Part shown: piece by piece, positions 32,625 through 64,000 of the stretch
Layout of the letters: the number at the start of each line of letters is the position of its first letter
How positions within the stretch are numbered: position 1 is the first letter of the stretch
DNA from: an uncultured bacterium
GTDB lineage: Bacteria; Acidobacteriota; HRBIN11; JAKEFK01
Direction of reading: 5' to 3'
Length of the DNA stretch: 64,000 nt
Assembly: GCA_963777505.1 (NCBI GenBank)
Contig: CAVZQN010000003.1
Coordinates: 512,001-576,000, forward strand
Made by a program: the position numbers and the translations under genes
Notes under the pieces: generated by a model
The model's database searches: none
Seen by the model: only the letters and a program-made list of their open reading frames with translations
Told to the model about the DNA's origin: nothing

Positions 32625-33193
32625 GAAAACATCTGCAAACGATGGTAGGGGCGGCCCTTGTGGCCGCCCGGGAAAAATTGCTTACGAGAATGCGGGCGAC
32701 CACAAGGGTCGCCCCTACCAATCAGAAAGGGGTCACGTTTGTTGAACTTCTTGTAGTGTTGTCGGTTCTTGTCATTCTTTCTGCGCTTGCACTTCCTGTC
32801 GCGAAATTTTCTGTTCGTAGACATAAGGAAATCGAGCTGAAGCAGAATCTCCGCATGATACGGAATGCGATTGATGCATATCACGAAGCTGGTGTTCCAT
32901 CGACGCCTGGCGCAACTCCGAAAATTCAGGTGAAATTTGGAACAGATGGTTGGCCTCAGACTCTTGAGGCTCTTGTAGAAGGTGAAACACTCATCGGTGA
33001 TGCTACAGGAAAAAAGATCCGATTTTTGCGTCGTATCCCGCTTGATCCAATTACGAACAGTTATGAATGGGGATTACGCGCGAGCCAGGATGATAAAGAT
33101 TCAAAAAATTGGGGCGGTGAAAACGTTTGGGATGTATATTGCAACTCAGACGCAGTTAGTTTAGATGGAGTGTCAAAGTACAGCGAATGGTAG
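32621..33193 (+). CDS. Pseudopilin (GspG-like) with prepilin N-methylation motif
   Basis: KG|VTFVELLVVL, KE.EL..NL..IR.AIDAY and FLRRIP.DP; ATG overlaps the secretin stop (ATGA). Confidence 0.88.
   Translation: MRKHLQTMVGAALVAAREKLLTRMRATTRVAPTNQKGVTFVELLVVLSVLVILSALALPVAKFSVRRHKEIELKQNLRMIRNAIDAYHEAGVPSTPGATPKIQVKFGTDGWPQTLEALVEGETLIGDATGKKIRFLRRIPLDPITNSYEWGLRASQDDKDSKNWGGENVWDVYCNSDAVSLDGVSKYSEW
32645..32718. repeat. REPIN: inverted pair of GTAG-type REPs inside the pseudopilin leader
   Basis: GTAGGGGCGGCCCTTGTGGCCGCCCG (32645-32670) and CGGGCGACCACAAGGGTCGCCCCTAC (32693-32718), with a compensatory GC/AT change in the hairpin. Confidence 0.9.
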
Positions 33194-48175: not shown

Positions 48176-48672
48176 GCAGGGGAGCAGGGGAGAAAGGGAG
48201 CAGGGGTGAAGAGCGCGTGGGAGCGGTGGAGAAGGAGATCAAATGAAAAGAGGAATTCAGAGCCACCGCGAACTAGACGTTTATAAAATGGCCTTTGAGG
48301 CCGCTATGAAATTATTTGAAGTGACCAAAACTTTTCCTCCTGACGAAAAGTATTCTTTAACTGGTCAAATCCGTCGTGCTTCTAGATCAGTTTGTGCAAA
48401 TCTGGCAGAAGCTTGGAGAAAGCGGCGCTATAGAGCCGCTTTTGTAAGTAAACTTTGTGATTGTGAAGGCGAGGCTGCAGAGGTCCAAACTTGGATTGAG
48501 TTCGCAGTAAAGTGTAATTACGTAGAGAAAGCATCGGCTAAAACTTTGTATTTTGAGTATGACCAAATTATCGGAAAACTAGTAAGAATGATTAATTATC
48601 CAGAACCATGGGTTCTTCACGGCACCAAACCTTCCTAATCACCCCAGCTCCCCTGCTCCTCTGCTCCCCTGC
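48176..48672 (+). mobile_element. Putative cassette: four-helix-bundle gene enclosed by 34-bp family B inverted repeats
   Basis: 48176-48209 GCAGGGGAGCAGGGGAGAAAGGGAGCAGGGGTGA versus the reverse complement of 48639-48672, GCAGGGGAGCAGAGGAGCAGGGGAGCTGGGGTGA (30/34). Mobility is inferred. Confidence 0.6.
48243..48638 (+). CDS. Four helix bundle protein (23S rRNA IVS protein / Avd-like family)
   Basis: L.VY..A, FP.DEKYSLT.QIRRASRSV.ANLAE, F..KL....GEAAE..TW; AAGGAG RBS. Confidence 0.93.
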   Translation: MKRGIQSHRELDVYKMAFEAAMKLFEVTKTFPPDEKYSLTGQIRRASRSVCANLAEAWRKRRYRAAFVSKLCDCEGEAAEVQTWIEFAVKCNYVEKASAKTLYFEYDQIIGKLVRMINYPEPWVLHGTKPS

Positions 48673-61585: not shown

Positions 61586-62164
61586 ATGGAAGCTGCGGAA
61601 TTTATCGAGAACGCTCAAGGTTGTTTAAAGCAGGTTGATGAGCTGCGTCAGGAAAAGCAGGCAATCGGCAGCCCCAAAGTGAAGGCATGGAAGACGGAAG
61701 TCGAACAGATTTTGCGTTCCGGCGGCAAGAATACTACAAAGTTGCTGCACAGTTTTATGAATCTGAAATTTGGTGCGAGTCCGATGGGTACCGAAGCTAT
61801 AGCGGGTGATCCAGTTAAGTTTCAAGCCTATCAAGCCGAATTAGATACAGCTGAAAAGCTTTTGAAGAGTGCTATTCAAACAATACAGATTTTTGGGATT
61901 ACTGAAGCACCAAAACTTCCTGACTGGGTAAAACAAGAACTCAAGGCTAGTGGTGTAATTCGTCTAGGTGCAAAAGAAGTTGATATCAAAAATGTTACAG
62001 TCCATGAATTCCTGACCGCCATGGTTGAATTATCGGAAGCAGATGGAAGTCTTGATGAAACGTTAAAAAAGGAAATGTCGCAGCGATTGGAATCGTTAAA
62101 GAAACACCCCCTCCTTTCCCCATTTCTTAATCAAACCATCGACAAAGTCTTCTCCAAACTCTAA
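61586..62164 (+). CDS. Hypothetical helical protein
   Basis: 192-aa ORF filling the gap, with no recognised motif. Confidence 0.6.
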   Translation: MEAAEFIENAQGCLKQVDELRQEKQAIGSPKVKAWKTEVEQILRSGGKNTTKLLHSFMNLKFGASPMGTEAIAGDPVKFQAYQAELDTAEKLLKSAIQTIQIFGITEAPKLPDWVKQELKASGVIRLGAKEVDIKNVTVHEFLTAMVELSEADGSLDETLKKEMSQRLESLKKHPLLSPFLNQTIDKVFSKL

Positions 62165-62175
62165 CCACTGTTTTT

Positions 62176-62615
62176 CACCACGGAGTCACGGAGAGCACGG
62201 AGATAAAAATTCATAGGACTAATCGTCGTAATCCTTGTTTTAGAAAACGACATTTGAAGTTCAAGATTAAGCCGATATGGATGCCTGACATCTTAAGATA
62301 AGTAAGTAATTGCGCTTCATGAATTGGCAAGATTGTGTCCACATTCTTTATCTCAAGAATGACCTTATTACTGACCACAATGTCTATCCGGTAGCCATAA
62401 CTAAATTCCAAGCCCTTGTATTTCACTGGAAGCCGTCTCTGACGTTCAACTGTAAGACCGCAATTTCTTAGTTCATAGCAAAGACATTCCTCATAAATCG
62501 ATTCTAAGAGCCCAGGTCCTAGTGATCGATGAACTTCGATTGCCGCAGCAATTATTTTCTTAGTTAATTCTTCTTCATAAATCATTTTCTCCGTGCTCTC
62601 CGTGACTCCGTGGTG
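62176..62615 (-). mobile_element. Putative cassette: GxxExxY gene enclosed by perfect 28-bp family A inverted repeats
   Basis: CACCACGGAGTCACGGAGAGCACGGAGA at 62176-62203 equals the reverse complement of 62588-62615 (28/28). Mobility is inferred. Confidence 0.65.
62211..62585 (-). CDS. GxxExxY protein (PD-(D/E)XK nuclease-like)
   Basis: IIAAAIEVH..LGPGLLESIYE, YRIDIVV..KVILEIK and AQLLTYLK..GLILNF. ATG 62585 preferred; an alternative TTG at 62621 would translate the repeat. Confidence 0.93.
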   Translation of the reverse strand: MIYEEELTKKIIAAAIEVHRSLGPGLLESIYEECLCYELRNCGLTVERQRRLPVKYKGLEFSYGYRIDIVVSNKVILEIKNVDTILPIHEAQLLTYLKMSGIHIGLILNFKCRFLKQGLRRLVL

Positions 62616-62617
62616 GT

Positions 62618-64000
62618 TCAATACTGGTCGATGGATCGATACTGGATAGCTTCGGATAAATACTGTGTTTTGATGTCGTTCGAACTATCTAAGTCGGCAA
62701 TCGTACGGGACACTTTCAGGATCCGATGATATGCCCGAGCACTGAGATGAAATTTTCGGATGGCTTTTTCCATGAGTTGCAAACAAGAATCATCCAGTTT
62801 GCAATATTGTTTGATTAATTTTGCCGGGATTTGTGAATTGCTGAACAATCGATGCTTGCGATACCTTTCGAGTTGAGTATTCCGAGCGTTACAAATGCGG
62901 GTGCGAATGAGTTGAGACGACTCAGACTCAAAATTTTCCGAAAGAAGTTCTTGCGACTTTACAGCCGGAATATCAAGATGAATGTCGAAACGATCCAATA
63001 ATGGTCCCGATATTCGCGCGAGATATCGCTGGAGTTGTTGGTTTGTGCACTTACAGCTACGATCCGGCACACCATAATATCCACACGGACAAGGATTCAT
63101 GGCACCCATCAGCATGAAACGGGATGGATATTCTACAGAACCTGAGGCGCGTGAAATTCGGATGGTTCCATTCTCAAGTGGTTGTCTTAGAATTTCCAAA
63201 ATGCTTTTGCCGAATTCTGGAAGTTCATCCAAAAACAACACACCATTATGCGCCAATGAAATCTCACCAGGCCGCGGATTACTTCCACCACCGGCTAATC
63301 CTGCATAACTGATTGTGTGATGTGGTGCGCGAAATGGTCTGCTGCGCATCAAGCCATCAGTGCCGAGTAATCCCGCAACGGAATACACTTTTGAAGTTTC
63401 AACAGCTTCTTCAAATGTGAGAGATGGCAGAATGCTTGGCACCCGTTGAGCAAGTAGAGTTTTACCGGCGCCGGGAGGTCCGATCATCAGGACATTGTGT
63501 CCGCCTGCCGCAGCGACTTCCAATGCACGTTTTGCATGATATTGTCCTTTCACTTCCGAAAAATCAACGGGATAATTCATGTTTGTGTTCTGATCAGTGA
63601 ATGGCTTTACCTGTAATTTTTCGATGCCTTCGCGTTTGCTTAAAAACTCAGCTGCTTCGATTAACGAATTGACTGGAAAAACACTGGCACCATCAATCAT
63701 GGCTGCCTCTGAAGCATTCTCACGCGGAATTAGAAGGTTAGGAATTCTCAGTTTTCTCGCGAGAATCACAAACGCAAGAATGCCACATACCGGCCGCACC
63801 CTTCCTTCAAGTGAAAGTTCGCCAAGAATTAAGAATTGATCGAAAGCAGGAGGTTTAATCTGATCTGAGGCAGCCAGTATTCCAAGTGCAATCGGTAAAT
63901 CGAAGTAAGGTCCTTCTTTTCGCAAATTCCCTGGCCCAAGATTGACCGTGATCGTACGGCTCGGGATGTAATATCCGCAGTTGCCGATTGCAACCCGGAC
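62618..64000 (-). CDS. comM: YifB/ComM Mg-chelatase-like AAA+ ATPase, 5' truncated by the window edge
   Basis: ITVNLGPG.LRKEG..FDLPIA, GPPGAGKT, PFRAPHH, PGEISLAHNGVLFLDE, MNPCPCG and SGPLLDRFD; frame is open to 64000. Confidence 0.95.
   Translation of the reverse strand, partial: VRVAIGNCGYYIPSRTITVNLGPGNLRKEGPYFDLPIALGILAASDQIKPPAFDQFLILGELSLEGRVRPVCGILAFVILARKLRIPNLLIPRENASEAAMIDGASVFPVNSLIEAAEFLSKREGIEKLQVKPFTDQNTNMNYPVDFSEVKGQYHAKRALEVAAAGGHNVLMIGPPGAGKTLLAQRVPSILPSLTFEEAVETSKVYSVAGLLGTDGLMRSRPFRAPHHTISYAGLAGGGSNPRPGEISLAHNGVLFLDELPEFGKSILEILRQPLENGTIRISRASGSVEYPSRFMLMGAMNPCPCGYYGVPDRSCKCTNQQLQRYLARISGPLLDRFDIHLDIPAVKSQELLSENFESESSQLIRTRICNARNTQLERYRKHRLFSNSQIPAKLIKQYCKLDDSCLQLMEKAIRKFHLSARAYHRILKVSRTIADLDSSNDIKTQYLSEAIQYRSIDQY

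What the first reader, a model, noticed from the sequence alone, without database searches (positions are those of the whole stretch)
62176..62615. GxxExxY nuclease-fold gene boxed by perfect 28-bp inverted repeats: candidate autonomous element of a repeat system with no recognisable transposase
Seen in sequence: the gene lies between two identical inverted 28-mers built from 9-bp units (CACGGAGT, CACGGAGAG). One arm begins 2 nt after the comM stop, and the other lies 11 nt after the stop of the convergent gene. The arm next to the start supplies GGAG just ahead of the ATG. Established: GxxExxY proteins are PD-(D/E)XK-fold proteins of unknown function, and RAYT genes are similarly flanked by their cognate REPs. 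Inference: this cassette may be the 'master' that cuts, or otherwise maintains and spreads, the family A repeats, making it a REP/RAYT analogue with a different enzyme.
Basis: partly seen in the sequence, partly recalled or inferred. Interest (0 to 1): 0.88.

Follow-up and report, generated by a model that had tools for sequence, protein, structure and literature searches.

The report
Small nuclease gene inside hairpin repeat
A 124-residue nuclease-fold gene sits exactly between two identical inverted 28-base arms of a repeat family scattered through this genome, and the same gene-plus-arms design recurs in many bacterial phyla, which points to an apparently undescribed partnership between a small nuclease and its own palindromic repeats.

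Summary
A perfect 28-bp inverted repeat (62176-62203 and 62588-62615) boxes a 124-aa GxxExxY/PF13366 gene, 2 nt from the comM stop and 11 nt from the stop of the convergent gene.

It is one case of a general design:
- All 3 PF13366 genes in this genome are boxed, each by its own arm variant built from 8-9-nt units (consensus CRCNRAG). Each variant has 37-68 further copies.
- In relatives 18 of 30 PF13366 genes are boxed, and in a cross-phylum sample 51 of 78. Shifted controls gave 0 of 113 and 0 of 147.
- 73 of those 78 loci have at least 4 CRCNRAG units in their flanks.
- Across 151 genomes of the phylum, array number tracks gene presence (Spearman 0.70).

So the gene-repeat coupling, which resembles REP/RAYT, is supported. 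Cutting or spreading of the repeats by the protein is not shown.

Evidence against a simple "master transposon":
- Paralogues are old.
- Both comM flanks are long-lived cassette sites. In relatives they hold a GxxExxY cassette, a four-helix-bundle (23S-rRNA-IVS-type) cassette, a geneless hairpin, or nothing.
- Some array-rich genomes lack the gene.

I found no description of this in print.

The parts
62176..62203 (+). Stop-proximal arm of the inverted repeat: three CACGGAG cores at 8- and 9-nt spacing, preceded by CAC. It lies 7 nt from the gene's stop codon and 11 nt after the stop of the convergent 192-aa ORF.
62211..62585 (-). GxxExxY gene, 124 aa with an ATG start, of PD-(D/E)XK fold. The motif residues are E28 (GxxExxY), D68, E78-x-K80, Q92 and Y96.
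   Evidence: family matches. (E28, D68, E78, K80, Y96 invariant in 13 sequences; Q92 in at least 90%). (AlphaFold2 mean pLDDT 93.5). (best fold matches Cas4 SSO0001 and lambda exonuclease, weak E-values).
62588..62615 (-). Start-proximal arm, the exact reverse complement of 62176-62203. It ends 2 nt before the ATG and begins 2 nt after the comM stop.
62589..62592 (-). GGAG of the innermost repeat unit, 3 nt upstream of the ATG: a likely ribosome-binding site supplied by the arm. In the predicted RNA fold it is paired with the other arm.
   Evidence: sequence. (minimum-free-energy fold closes the 28-bp stem and pairs the AUG region; z -6.56, 0 of 100 shuffles fold as well). (in many homologous cassettes the last unit ends 0-20 nt before the ATG).
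62618..64000 (-). Context: 3' part of a ComM/YifB-family gene on the same strand, directly upstream of the cassette. A second GxxExxY cassette lies just upstream of this gene, beyond the window end (genome C3:576168-576624).
61586..62164 (+). Context: convergent 192-aa ORF with no Pfam or NCBIfam family. It is conserved next to comM in relatives and marks the orthologous site.

Best explanation
The cassette is the gene-bearing member of a family of extragenic palindromic repeats. The arms of these repeats are tandem arrays of 8-9-nt units (here CACGGAG; general motif CRCNRAG).

SHOWN:
- GxxExxY genes and such arrays form a coupled unit. The unit is found across many phyla.
- Each gene copy in this genome has its own arm variant, and each variant also occurs tens of times without a gene.
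- Arrays and genes co-occur across genomes.
- Occupancy of a given intergenic site changes between relatives.

INFERRED:
- The small nuclease resembles Cas4, RecB and lambda exonuclease and keeps its catalytic residues. I infer that it is the cognate protein of the arrays. It would bind the repeated units, most likely when the arms are single-stranded or folded back as a hairpin, and nick or cut there.
- Over long times this would maintain and occasionally copy geneless hairpins and the 210-215-bp elements that share its termini.
- New copies would land preferentially in the loops of existing hairpins.

In population structure this is the REPIN/RAYT arrangement: one resident, mostly vertically inherited gene with many geneless repeats. 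The enzyme, however, is a PD-(D/E)XK nuclease and not a HUH tyrosine transposase.

The cassette at comM is a long-term resident, not a recently transposed copy. In the transcript read through from comM, the two arms would pair and hide the ribosome-binding site and start codon. Expression is therefore probably kept low or made conditional.
For: Anatomy:
- Perfect 28-bp arms tightly abut the start and stop codons.
- The nuclease motif residues are conserved. The model is confident. The nearest folds are Cas4 SSO0001 (E 3.2e-3, TM 0.50) and lambda exonuclease. There is a weak Cas4 profile hit at E 0.0029.

Same genome:
- 42 arms of this type, made up of 12 short hairpins (arm, 20-26-nt AT-rich loop, arm), this cassette and single arms.
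- Six elements of 210-215 bp are 73-85% identical to each other and carry the same termini. Each sits in the loop of another hairpin.
- All 3 PF13366 genes are boxed, each by a different arm variant.
- Those variants have 37, 68 and 54 arms genome-wide, against 0 in shuffles.
- Of 4 convergent CRCNRAG pairs with a 300-800-nt gap, 3 hold a PF13366 gene.
- There are 525 arrays of at least 2 units, against 46 in the reversed-genome control.
- Only 19% of arrays lie inside long ORFs, which cover 87% of the genome. Convergent pairs number 60 and divergent pairs 7.

Other genomes:
- Inverted-repeat boxing at score 13 or more: 18 of 30 loci and 5 of 11 further loci in the phylum sample, and 51 of 78 in the cross-phylum sample.
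- Shifted controls: 0 of 113 (my count of the rows) and 0 of 147.
- At least 4 CRCNRAG units within 200 nt: 73 of 78 cross-phylum loci and 19 of 30 phylum loci, against 2 of 30 four-helix-bundle loci.
- Two basal protein clades (7 rows) instead carry CACAGAT, CGCAGAT or GACAGGATT units. None of the 7 has 4 or more CRCNRAG units.
- Across 151 genomes, 51 of 67 with 5 or more triple-unit arrays have the gene, against 4 of 84 with fewer. Spearman is 0.70.

Site turnover:
- The comM 3' site is gene-bearing in G000 and G004. It holds a mini-palindrome in G001 and a loopless palindrome in G005. It is clean empty in G002.
- A gene-bearing cassette in G001 corresponds to a geneless hairpin in G000.
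Against: - No assay exists, so binding and cutting are inference only.
- I saw no target-site duplication at the cassette, the short hairpins or the 210-215-bp elements.
- Paralogues within a genome are old. Maximum identity is 39-60% in 7 of 8 genomes and 82% in one. Gene-bearing cassettes therefore do not copy themselves at any visible rate.
- Four-helix-bundle genes are not nucleases, yet they are boxed the same way by their own 7-nt-unit arrays (20 of 30, controls 1 of 108). They occupy the comM-upstream site in G003 and G005. A nuclease is thus not needed for the design.
- 9 of 44 genomes with 20 or more arrays have no PF13366 hit. One example is G082, with 113 arrays at 100% completeness.
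- In this genome the commonest unit types are CGCAAAG (117 arrays), CGCAGAG (111) and CACAAAG (75). None of them has a gene with matching arms.
- Arm-unit type follows the protein tree only weakly: 36 changes on 75 tips, against a shuffle mean of 42.4 and minimum of 38.
- The loops of the 12 short hairpins are no more alike than shuffled loops. Copying of whole hairpins is therefore not demonstrated for them.
- Part of the genome-level correlation is trivial, because each cassette brings its own arms. The genomes are also related to each other.
Confidence: 0.45

Rival explanations
1. IVS-like RNA cassette. The arms matter as RNA. In a read-through transcript they form a long stem, as in the intervening sequences of 23S rRNA that carry a four-helix-bundle ORF. 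That stem is cut by RNase III or blocks translation. The nuclease has some other cellular or defence role and does not act on the repeats. Geneless hairpins are RNA-structure elements or worn-down cassettes. Cassettes change place by host recombination at hairpin sites.
For: - The predicted fold of the sense RNA closes the 28-bp stem and pairs the ribosome-binding site and AUG (z -6.56).
- The cassette lies 2 nt after comM on the same strand, so read-through is likely.
- The four-helix-bundle family, known from RNase III-excised rRNA intervening sequences (abstract of PMC4990558), shows the same boxed design here. It shares the comM-upstream site with GxxExxY cassettes.
- In many homologous cassettes the arm abuts the start codon.
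Against: - Mismatches between arms show no excess of G-U-compatible changes on the sense strand. The counts are GxxExxY 14 against 8 and four-helix-bundle 15 against 23.
- In geneless hairpins the unit cores are conserved while the spacers between cores often do not pair. That fits a recognised motif better than a selected stem.
- This reading does not explain why this unit motif travels with this protein family across phyla, or why the two co-occur genome by genome.
- No Rfam family matches.
Confidence: 0.25
2. Passenger-gene model. The unit-array hairpins are made, kept or moved by an unidentified host or trans-acting factor. Hairpin loops are simply favoured landing or recombination sites. 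GxxExxY and four-helix-bundle genes are interchangeable small cargo genes that ride in them.
For: - In relatives the same comM-upstream site holds a GxxExxY cassette (G000, G004, G006), a four-helix-bundle cassette (G003, G005) or a one-unit hairpin (G001).
- Orthologous sites carry different arm types and non-sister proteins.
- The 210-215-bp elements sit in the loops of other hairpins.
- Some array-rich genomes lack PF13366.
- One AGATTTCAG-type pair boxes an unrelated 72-aa ORF.
Against: - Arm type is specific to the cargo family. At least 4 CRCNRAG units flank 73 of 78 and 19 of 30 GxxExxY loci, but only 2 of 30 four-helix-bundle loci.
- In this genome, 3 of the 4 gene-sized CRCNRAG pairs hold a GxxExxY gene and none holds a four-helix-bundle gene.
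- Deep protein clades have their own unit motifs.
- Arrays are nearly absent where the gene is absent: the gene is in only 4 of 84 array-poor genomes, and 51 of 55 gene-bearing genomes have 5 or more arrays.
Confidence: 0.2
3. Ordinary local signal. The arms are only a bidirectional terminator or operator palindrome between convergent genes, and the resemblance to other copies is incidental.
For: The position between convergent genes, immediately after two stop codons, is where terminators lie. Relatives have small hairpins at the same spot.
Against: - There is no T-run after either arm.
- The arm recurs 42 times in the genome, against 0 in a shuffle.
- The design recurs around homologues in 16 named phyla, with 0 of 147 controls.
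Confidence: 0.03

Closest known systems
REPIN/RAYT systems: REP-associated tyrosine transposases with their repetitive extragenic palindromes
   Same: - The gene is flanked by its cognate palindromic repeats in inverted orientation.
- There are many geneless extragenic copies, mostly as convergent pairs.
- In this genome there is one gene per arm variant.
- Persistence is long and largely vertical at fixed loci.
- Repeats and gene co-occur across genomes.
- This genome also has a canonical example: a Y1_Tnp gene between 47-bp arms of its own REP.

The REPIN/RAYT features are taken from the abstracts listed and from recall.
   Different: - The enzyme is a PD-(D/E)XK nuclease of 124 aa, not a HUH/Y1 transposase.
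- The arms are tandem arrays of 8-9-nt units, not a single 20-40-nt imperfect palindrome.
- No GTAG or CGTC head was seen.
- The gene sits inside the hairpin loop, or less often between two whole hairpins.
- There is much horizontal transfer between phyla.
Intervening sequences of 23S rRNA that carry an S23p/four-helix-bundle ORF (Leptospira, Coxiella)
   Same: A small ORF is enclosed by complementary ends that form a long stem in the transcript. The ORF family of those intervening sequences (PF05635/TIGR02436) shows the same boxed design in this genome and its relatives. It alternates with GxxExxY cassettes at the comM-upstream site.
   Different: - The location here is intergenic, after a protein gene. 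No rRNA was found in the window.
- The ORF is a nuclease-fold protein, not a four-helix bundle.
- RNase III processing is untested here. It was shown for Coxiella (abstract of PMC4990558).
MITE-like palindromic elements without a known transposase, such as Correia/NEMIS, and insertion of elements into REP loops (IS1397); both recalled, not from a call
   Same: Short extragenic elements with terminal inverted repeats and no transposase of their own. The 210-215-bp elements here share termini with the cassette and are nested in hairpin loops.
   Different: No target-site duplication was seen. The termini are unit arrays. A candidate cognate protein gene with the same termini exists.
G-rich heptamer repeats (GGGAATC) in convergent pairs in Xanthomonas (PMC4692102, passages read)
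   Same: Tandem 7-nt units occur as convergent inverted pairs in intergenic regions and are stable between species. This is the same design as the arms around four-helix-bundle genes here.
   Different: That paper treats them as possible G-quadruplex DNA. In the passages I read it names no associated gene family. The units differ from CRCNRAG.
Cas4 / RecB-family / lambda exonuclease nucleases
   Same: The PD-(D/E)XK core with D...ExK and a following Q...Y helix. These are the best fold matches, and there is a weak Cas4 profile match.
   Different: - The protein is about half their size.
- The cysteine cluster I recall for Cas4 was not looked for.
- There is no CRISPR context.
- E-values are weak (3e-3). 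No solved structure is found by sequence.

Membership tests
GxxExxY / PDDEXK_3 (PF13366, TIGR04256) | Profile match above the curated cut-off over the whole domain | tested here: met
   PF13366 at 144.7 bits (cut-off 22), profile positions 2-116 of 117. TIGR04256 at 148.8 bits (cut-off 35).
GxxExxY / PDDEXK_3 (PF13366, TIGR04256) | GxxExxY motif near the N-terminus | tested here: met
   G25-L-L-E28-S-I-Y31. G25, E28 and Y31 are invariant in 13 aligned sequences.
PD-(D/E)XK nuclease superfamily | Catalytic D...(D/E)xK on the central sheet of an alpha-beta-beta-beta-alpha-beta core | tested here: met
   D68, E78 and K80 are invariant. In the model (pLDDT 93.5) D68 lies in strand 59-71 and E78/K80 in strand 75-80. 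The best fold matches are PD-(D/E)XK nucleases. Activity itself was not tested.
REPIN/RAYT system | The associated protein is a HUH/Y1 transposase (PF01797) | tested here: not met
   The protein is PF13366. The two PF01797 hits of the genome lie elsewhere, and one sits between its own 47-bp arms.
REPIN/RAYT system | The gene is flanked by its cognate repeats in inverted orientation | tested here: met
   In general: 18 of 30, 5 of 11 and 51 of 78 loci.
REPIN/RAYT system | The same repeats are abundant, extragenic and mostly in convergent pairs | tested here: met
   42 arms and 12 short hairpins of this type. 525 arrays, of which 19% lie in long ORFs against 87% of the genome. 60 convergent against 7 divergent pairs.
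REPIN/RAYT system | The protein binds and cleaves its repeat as single-stranded DNA | not testable with these tools
   Needs biochemistry.
23S rRNA intervening sequence | Inserted in helix 25 or 45 of the 23S rRNA gene | tested here: not met
   The location is intergenic, between comM and a 192-aa ORF. There is no rRNA match in the window.
23S rRNA intervening sequence | Complementary ends form a stem that RNase III cuts | tested here: inconclusive
   The stem is predicted. Cleavage is not testable, and no RNA run was listed.
Insertion sequence / MITE | Terminal inverted repeats plus a target-site duplication, with multiple near-identical copies | tested here: not met
   Terminal inverted repeats are present. 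No duplication was seen at the flanks. Gene paralogues are at most 51% identical in this genome. The 210-215-bp elements are 73-85% alike.

The most novel reading that the evidence does not exclude
GxxExxY proteins are the enzymes of a second, widespread class of REPIN-like intragenomic replicators. This class is built on a minimal Cas4/RecB-type PD-(D/E)XK nuclease and arrays of 8-9-nt recognition units. It targets the loops of existing hairpins and is exchanged between phyla as a cassette of about 440 bp. The four-helix-bundle (Avd-like, rRNA-IVS) proteins, with their 7-nt-unit arrays, would be a sister system. The long-puzzling ORF-bearing intervening sequences of 23S rRNA would then be only the copies of such cassettes that happened to land in rRNA hairpins.
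Probability: 0.3. Interest if true: 0.9.

Novelty: new variant of a known kind. Interest (0 to 1): 0.8.

Why it matters
PF13366/TIGR04256 is a large family of unknown function found in most bacterial phyla. Here it acquires a concrete, testable partner: arrays of CRCNRAG units that reach hundreds of copies per genome (up to about 500 triple-unit arrays in the sample).

If the nuclease acts on these arrays, REPIN/RAYT would no longer be the only known long-lived repeat-plus-enzyme partnership in bacterial chromosomes. A new small sequence- or structure-specific nuclease would also become available.

The shared design with four-helix-bundle cassettes offers a route to the origin of ORF-bearing rRNA intervening sequences. 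It may also explain the heptamer repeat pairs described in Xanthomonas.

Practically, these arrays lie at many contig ends in draft genomes (G010 rows). They also create spurious N-terminal extensions of annotated proteins.

Tried and rejected
- Strand test for RNA-level selection: G-U-compatible against A-C mismatches between arms. No bias was seen, so it decides nothing.
- Loop relatedness of the 12 short hairpins: not above shuffled loops.
- Target-site duplications: none seen by eye at cassette, hairpin or 210-215-bp element flanks. This was not tested statistically.
- Rfam: no match around the cassette at E up to 1, nor in the window at gathering scores.
- Solved structures by sequence: only one chance-level hit at E = 1.
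- RNA evidence: no RNA holder was listed for the stretch. Read laying was not used, because all holders had small shares.
- Homodimer prediction: no verdict.
- Reverse transcriptase partner for the Avd-like four-helix-bundle genes: no PF00078 hit in this genome, which is 95.9% complete.
- PADLOC: only weak Cas4 hits for the nuclease.
- Orthology of the comM-downstream proteins of G000 and G004: the tree leaves it unresolved.
- I first misread the G006 cassette as comM-downstream. Collinearity and the sequence show that it is comM-upstream.
- Literature: searches for GxxExxY, for PDDEXK_3/PF13366/PF05635, for TIGR04256/TIGR02436/S23p and for RAYT/REPIN with PDDEXK found no paper that links this family to repeats. 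The library lacks most subscription journals, and supplements were not available.
- Recalled, not from any call: the NCBIfam/TIGRFAM free-text descriptions of the two families, IS1397 insertion into REP loops, Correia elements, and the role of ComM in transformation.
Full report
**1. The observation**

The window holds exactly two copies of CACCACGGAGTCACGGAGAGCACGGAGA. They lie at 62176-62203 (+) and 62588-62615 (-), both without a mismatch. No match occurred in 100 dinucleotide-preserving shuffles, even with up to 3 mismatches allowed. Each arm is three CACGGAG cores at 8- and 9-nt spacing.

Between the arms lies one ORF, 62211-62585 (-), with an ATG start and 124 aa. It matches PF13366 PDDEXK_3 (E 2e-42) and TIGR04256 GxxExxY (E 7.6e-44).

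The fit is tight:
- 7 nt separate the stop-proximal arm from the stop codon.
- 2 nt separate the other arm from the ATG.
- The last GGAG of that arm lies 3 nt before the ATG.
- That arm starts 2 nt after the stop of a ComM/YifB-family gene on the same strand.
- The stop-proximal arm starts 11 nt after the stop of a convergent 192-aa ORF.

**2. The repeat family in this genome**

The window is C3:512001-576000 of a 5.23-Mb, 14-contig genome.

The 26-nt arm core occurs 42 times with at most 5 mismatches, and 0 times in a shuffled 1.9-Mb contig. Twenty-six of these arms form 13 convergent pairs. Twelve pairs are short hairpins (arm, 20-26-nt AT-rich loop, arm), and one is this cassette.

Six further copies are the left ends of 210-215-bp long-palindrome elements. 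These are 73-85% identical to each other and end in the same ACCACGGAGTCACGGAG...GTGACTCCGTGGT termini. Each sits inside the loop of a different hairpin of another unit type. Their inner palindrome occurs nowhere else.

With the general unit motif CRCNRAG:
- The genome has 525 arrays of at least 2 units, against 46 in the reversed-genome control.
- Only 19% of arrays lie inside long ORFs, which cover 87% of the genome.
- Convergent pairs outnumber divergent pairs 60 to 7.

**3. All GxxExxY genes here are boxed, each by its own arm variant**

The genome has three PF13366 matches:
- this gene;
- a second one just beyond the window, directly upstream of comM (C3:576219-576569);
- a pseudogene on C8.

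Each is boxed by an inverted repeat of the same design but a different sequence. The three are 28 nt of CACGGAG units, 24 nt of ACGCCGAG units, and 20 nt of CGCCAAG units. Each variant has tens of further copies: 37, 68 and 54 arms, against 0 in shuffles. Of the 4 convergent CRCNRAG pairs with a 300-800-nt gap, 3 are these three genes.

The genome's RAYT-type Y1 transposase sits between 47-bp arms of a different repeat. No reverse transcriptase was found.

**4. The design is general**

I scored the best ungapped inverted repeat (+1 per match, -2 per mismatch) between the 130-nt flanks of each PF13366 match. The same geometry, shifted by 560-1000 nt, served as control.

| Sample | Loci boxed (score 13 or more) | Shifted controls |
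|---|---|---|
| 30 loci from 15 genomes of the phylum | 18 of 30 | 0 of 113 (my count of the rows; maximum 12) |
| 11 further loci | 5 of 11 | not run |
| 80 loci, the best of at least 584 confirmed hits in one genome per species; 2 dropped for short flanks | 51 of 78 | 0 of 147 |

The 75 loci of the third sample that have an arm-unit label come from 16 named phyla, and 3 of them have no named phylum.

Six of the 51 boxed loci have the opposite arm polarity. In at least three of them (L078, L107, L111) this is because the gene lies between two complete geneless hairpins, which is the arrangement known for RAYT genes between REPINs.

By motif instead of pairing:
- 73 of the 78 loci have at least 4 CRCNRAG units within 200 nt. 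The mean inside the genes is 0.58.
- In the phylum sample the figure is 19 of 30.
- For four-helix-bundle loci it is 2 of 30.

The phylum loci without CRCNRAG units include the 7 members of two basal clades of the protein tree, none of which has 4 or more such units. The arms found at five of these loci use CACAGAT(GAA), CACAGAA, CGCAGAT(TT) or GACAGGATT units instead. The unit motif therefore goes with the protein lineage at depth.

Within the main clade the variable unit positions change often. There are 36 changes on 75 tips, against a shuffle mean of 42.4, and 0 of 300 shuffles were as low. Host phylum also changes 36 times, against a shuffle mean of 51.6. That indicates frequent horizontal transfer of the cassette.

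**5. Genes and arrays co-occur**

The sample is 151 genomes of the phylum. Triple-unit arrays number 5563 in all, against 254 for the pattern read backwards.

| Triple-unit arrays in the genome | Genomes with a PF13366 match |
|---|---|
| 5 or more | 51 of 67 |
| fewer than 5 | 4 of 84 |

Spearman is 0.70.

These tallies include G035 and G058, which the tool flags as unpublished. Without them the figures are 50 of 66 and 4 of 83 (my arithmetic from the rows).

Caveats:
- The genomes are related to each other.
- Each cassette contributes its own arms.
- Repeats are often unassembled in draft genomes.

Exceptions matter. Nine of the 44 genomes with 20 or more arrays have no match, among them G082 with 113 arrays at 100% completeness.

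**6. The protein**

Thirteen aligned sequences keep G25, E28, Y31, D68, E78, K80, H89 and Y96 invariant, and Q92 in at least 90%. This is the PD-(D/E)XK set plus a Q...Y helix.

The AlphaFold2 model is confident (mean pLDDT 93.5). Its best matches among solved structures are Cas4 SSO0001 (E 3.2e-3, TM 0.50), lambda exonuclease and MGME1. All are weak. A Cas4 profile matches at E 0.0029. No solved structure is found by sequence.

A published survey lists PF13366 as "Unknown" with multiple transfers (one table row of PMC3424549). One paper notes that a cas4 gene was labelled as a GxxExxY domain (one passage of PMC8934634).

**7. History of this locus**

Both flanks of comM are cassette sites in the family.

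Downstream site (this finding):
| Genome | What lies there |
|---|---|
| G000, G004 (a different genus) | GxxExxY cassette with CACGGAG-type arms |
| G001 (same genus as G000) | Only a 27-nt mini-palindrome made of the outermost arm bases |
| G005 | A loopless 40-nt palindrome of CGCAAAG units |
| G002 (same genus as G004) | Clean empty site: 13 nt between the two stop codons |
| G006 | No units |

Upstream site:
| Genome | What lies there |
|---|---|
| G000, G004, G006 | GxxExxY cassettes with differing arm variants |
| G003, G005 | Four-helix-bundle cassettes with their own arms (39 nt of GATCGTN units; 22 nt) |
| G001 | A one-unit hairpin |

Elsewhere:
- The pseudogene cassette on C8 is syntenic with cassettes in four other genomes. 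Their arms and protein clades differ.
- A gene-bearing cassette of G001 corresponds to a geneless ACGCCGAG hairpin in G000.
- Geneless hairpin sites of G001 correspond in G000 to hairpins of other families.
- Paralogues within a genome are old. Maximum identity is 39-60% in seven genomes and 82% in one.

The picture is of long-lived intergenic hairpin sites whose content turns over. It is not one of a recently jumping gene.

**8. The four-helix-bundle parallel**

PF05635/TIGR02436 genes number 5-6 here and have a weak Avd profile match. They are boxed in 20 of 30 loci, against 1 of 108 controls, by arms of 7-nt, mostly G-rich units up to 64 nt long.

This family is the ORF of rRNA intervening sequences that RNase III excises (abstract of PMC4990558). 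Convergent pairs of G-rich heptamer arrays have been described in Xanthomonas. In the passages I read, no gene family was linked to them (PMC4692102).

**9. How it most likely works**

Shown:
- The gene and the arms are a unit.
- The arm motif is specific to the protein family.
- Geneless copies abound and are extragenic.
- Elements with the same termini have inserted into hairpin loops.
- Occupancy of sites changes between relatives.
- Genes and arrays co-occur across genomes.

Inferred (0.45):
- The nuclease recognises its own unit arrays, probably as single strands or fold-back hairpins, and nicks them.
- It thereby maintains and occasionally copies geneless elements, as in REPIN/RAYT but with a different enzyme.
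- The arms also pair in the read-through transcript and mask the ribosome-binding site and AUG (z -6.56).

Rivals:
- An RNA-level, IVS-like cassette (0.25).
- Interchangeable passenger genes in hairpins that something else maintains (0.20).
- An ordinary terminator (0.03).

The strand test for RNA selection was uninformative. The loops of the short hairpins are not demonstrably related. No RNA run was listed.

**10. Novelty**

Four full-text searches found no paper that links GxxExxY/PF13366 to repeats. The library omits most subscription journals, and supplements were closed. I therefore rate this as a new variant of a known kind, a REPIN/RAYT-like partnership with an IVS-like cassette form, and of high interest.

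Noticed in passing
window 48176-48672 (genome C3:560176-560672): A four-helix-bundle gene (PF05635/TIGR02436, window 48267-48581 +) is boxed by arms of about 26-34 nt built from GCAGGGGAG-type units. The same arm type has 35 copies in the genome.
   Followed up: partly
just beyond the window end, genome C3:576168-576624: A second intact GxxExxY cassette lies directly upstream of comM, with perfect 24-nt arms TTTTTTAACGCCGAGTACGCCGAG. comM is therefore flanked by cassettes on both sides.
   Followed up: yes
genome C4:1855935-1856626 (outside the window): A canonical REP/RAYT arrangement: a Y1_Tnp gene (PF01797, E 1.7e-13) sits between 47-nt inverted arms (TTAGAGGCCCGGCC...). Shorter copies of that repeat occur elsewhere in the genome.
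   Followed up: partly
window 32643-32720 and about 40 other places in the genome: A hairpin family with arms GTAGGGGCGGGTCTAAGACCCGCCCG, where each arm is itself a palindrome, and loops of about 20 nt. No associated gene was identified. At two sites it replaces CACGGAG-type hairpins of the same-genus relative.
   Followed up: no
window 61586-62164 (+): The convergent 192-aa ORF has no Pfam or NCBIfam family. It matches the PADLOC candidate defence model PDC-S35 at E 6e-6.
   Followed up: no
genome C4:1768751-1769209 and C10:39077-39734: Two more gene-sized pairs of AGATTTCAG-type arms, the arm type of a four-helix-bundle cassette. One encloses a 72-aa ORF with no family (best Pfam E 0.14). 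The other encloses only a 53-aa ORF. These may be a further cargo type or decayed genes.
   Followed up: partly
genome C1:361023-361812: A CGCCAAG array and a CGCCGAG array of opposite orientation flank about 750 nt. By eye this stretch seems to hold two small reading frames, which were neither translated nor searched. The two arrays are not arms of one hairpin.
   Followed up: no
G141 (same phylum, complete single contig): This genome has 27 PF13366 matches, many of them fragments of similar length, but only 17 triple-unit arrays. It may be an expansion of a different kind.
   Followed up: no
genome-wide, e.g. C1:32943-33098: A family of about 150-nt elements with arms TAGCCCCCGGCGTAAGCCGGGGGT and gaps of about 100 nt. 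One copy sits at the G000 site that corresponds to a GxxExxY pseudogene cassette in G001.
   Followed up: no
window 62211-62621 (-): The mechanical ORF call starts at a TTG inside or upstream of the arm and reads through it (136 aa, N-terminus MNHHGVTESTEK...). In several homologous loci the open frame likewise runs through the arm. This is a likely source of spurious N-terminal extensions in annotations.
   Followed up: partly
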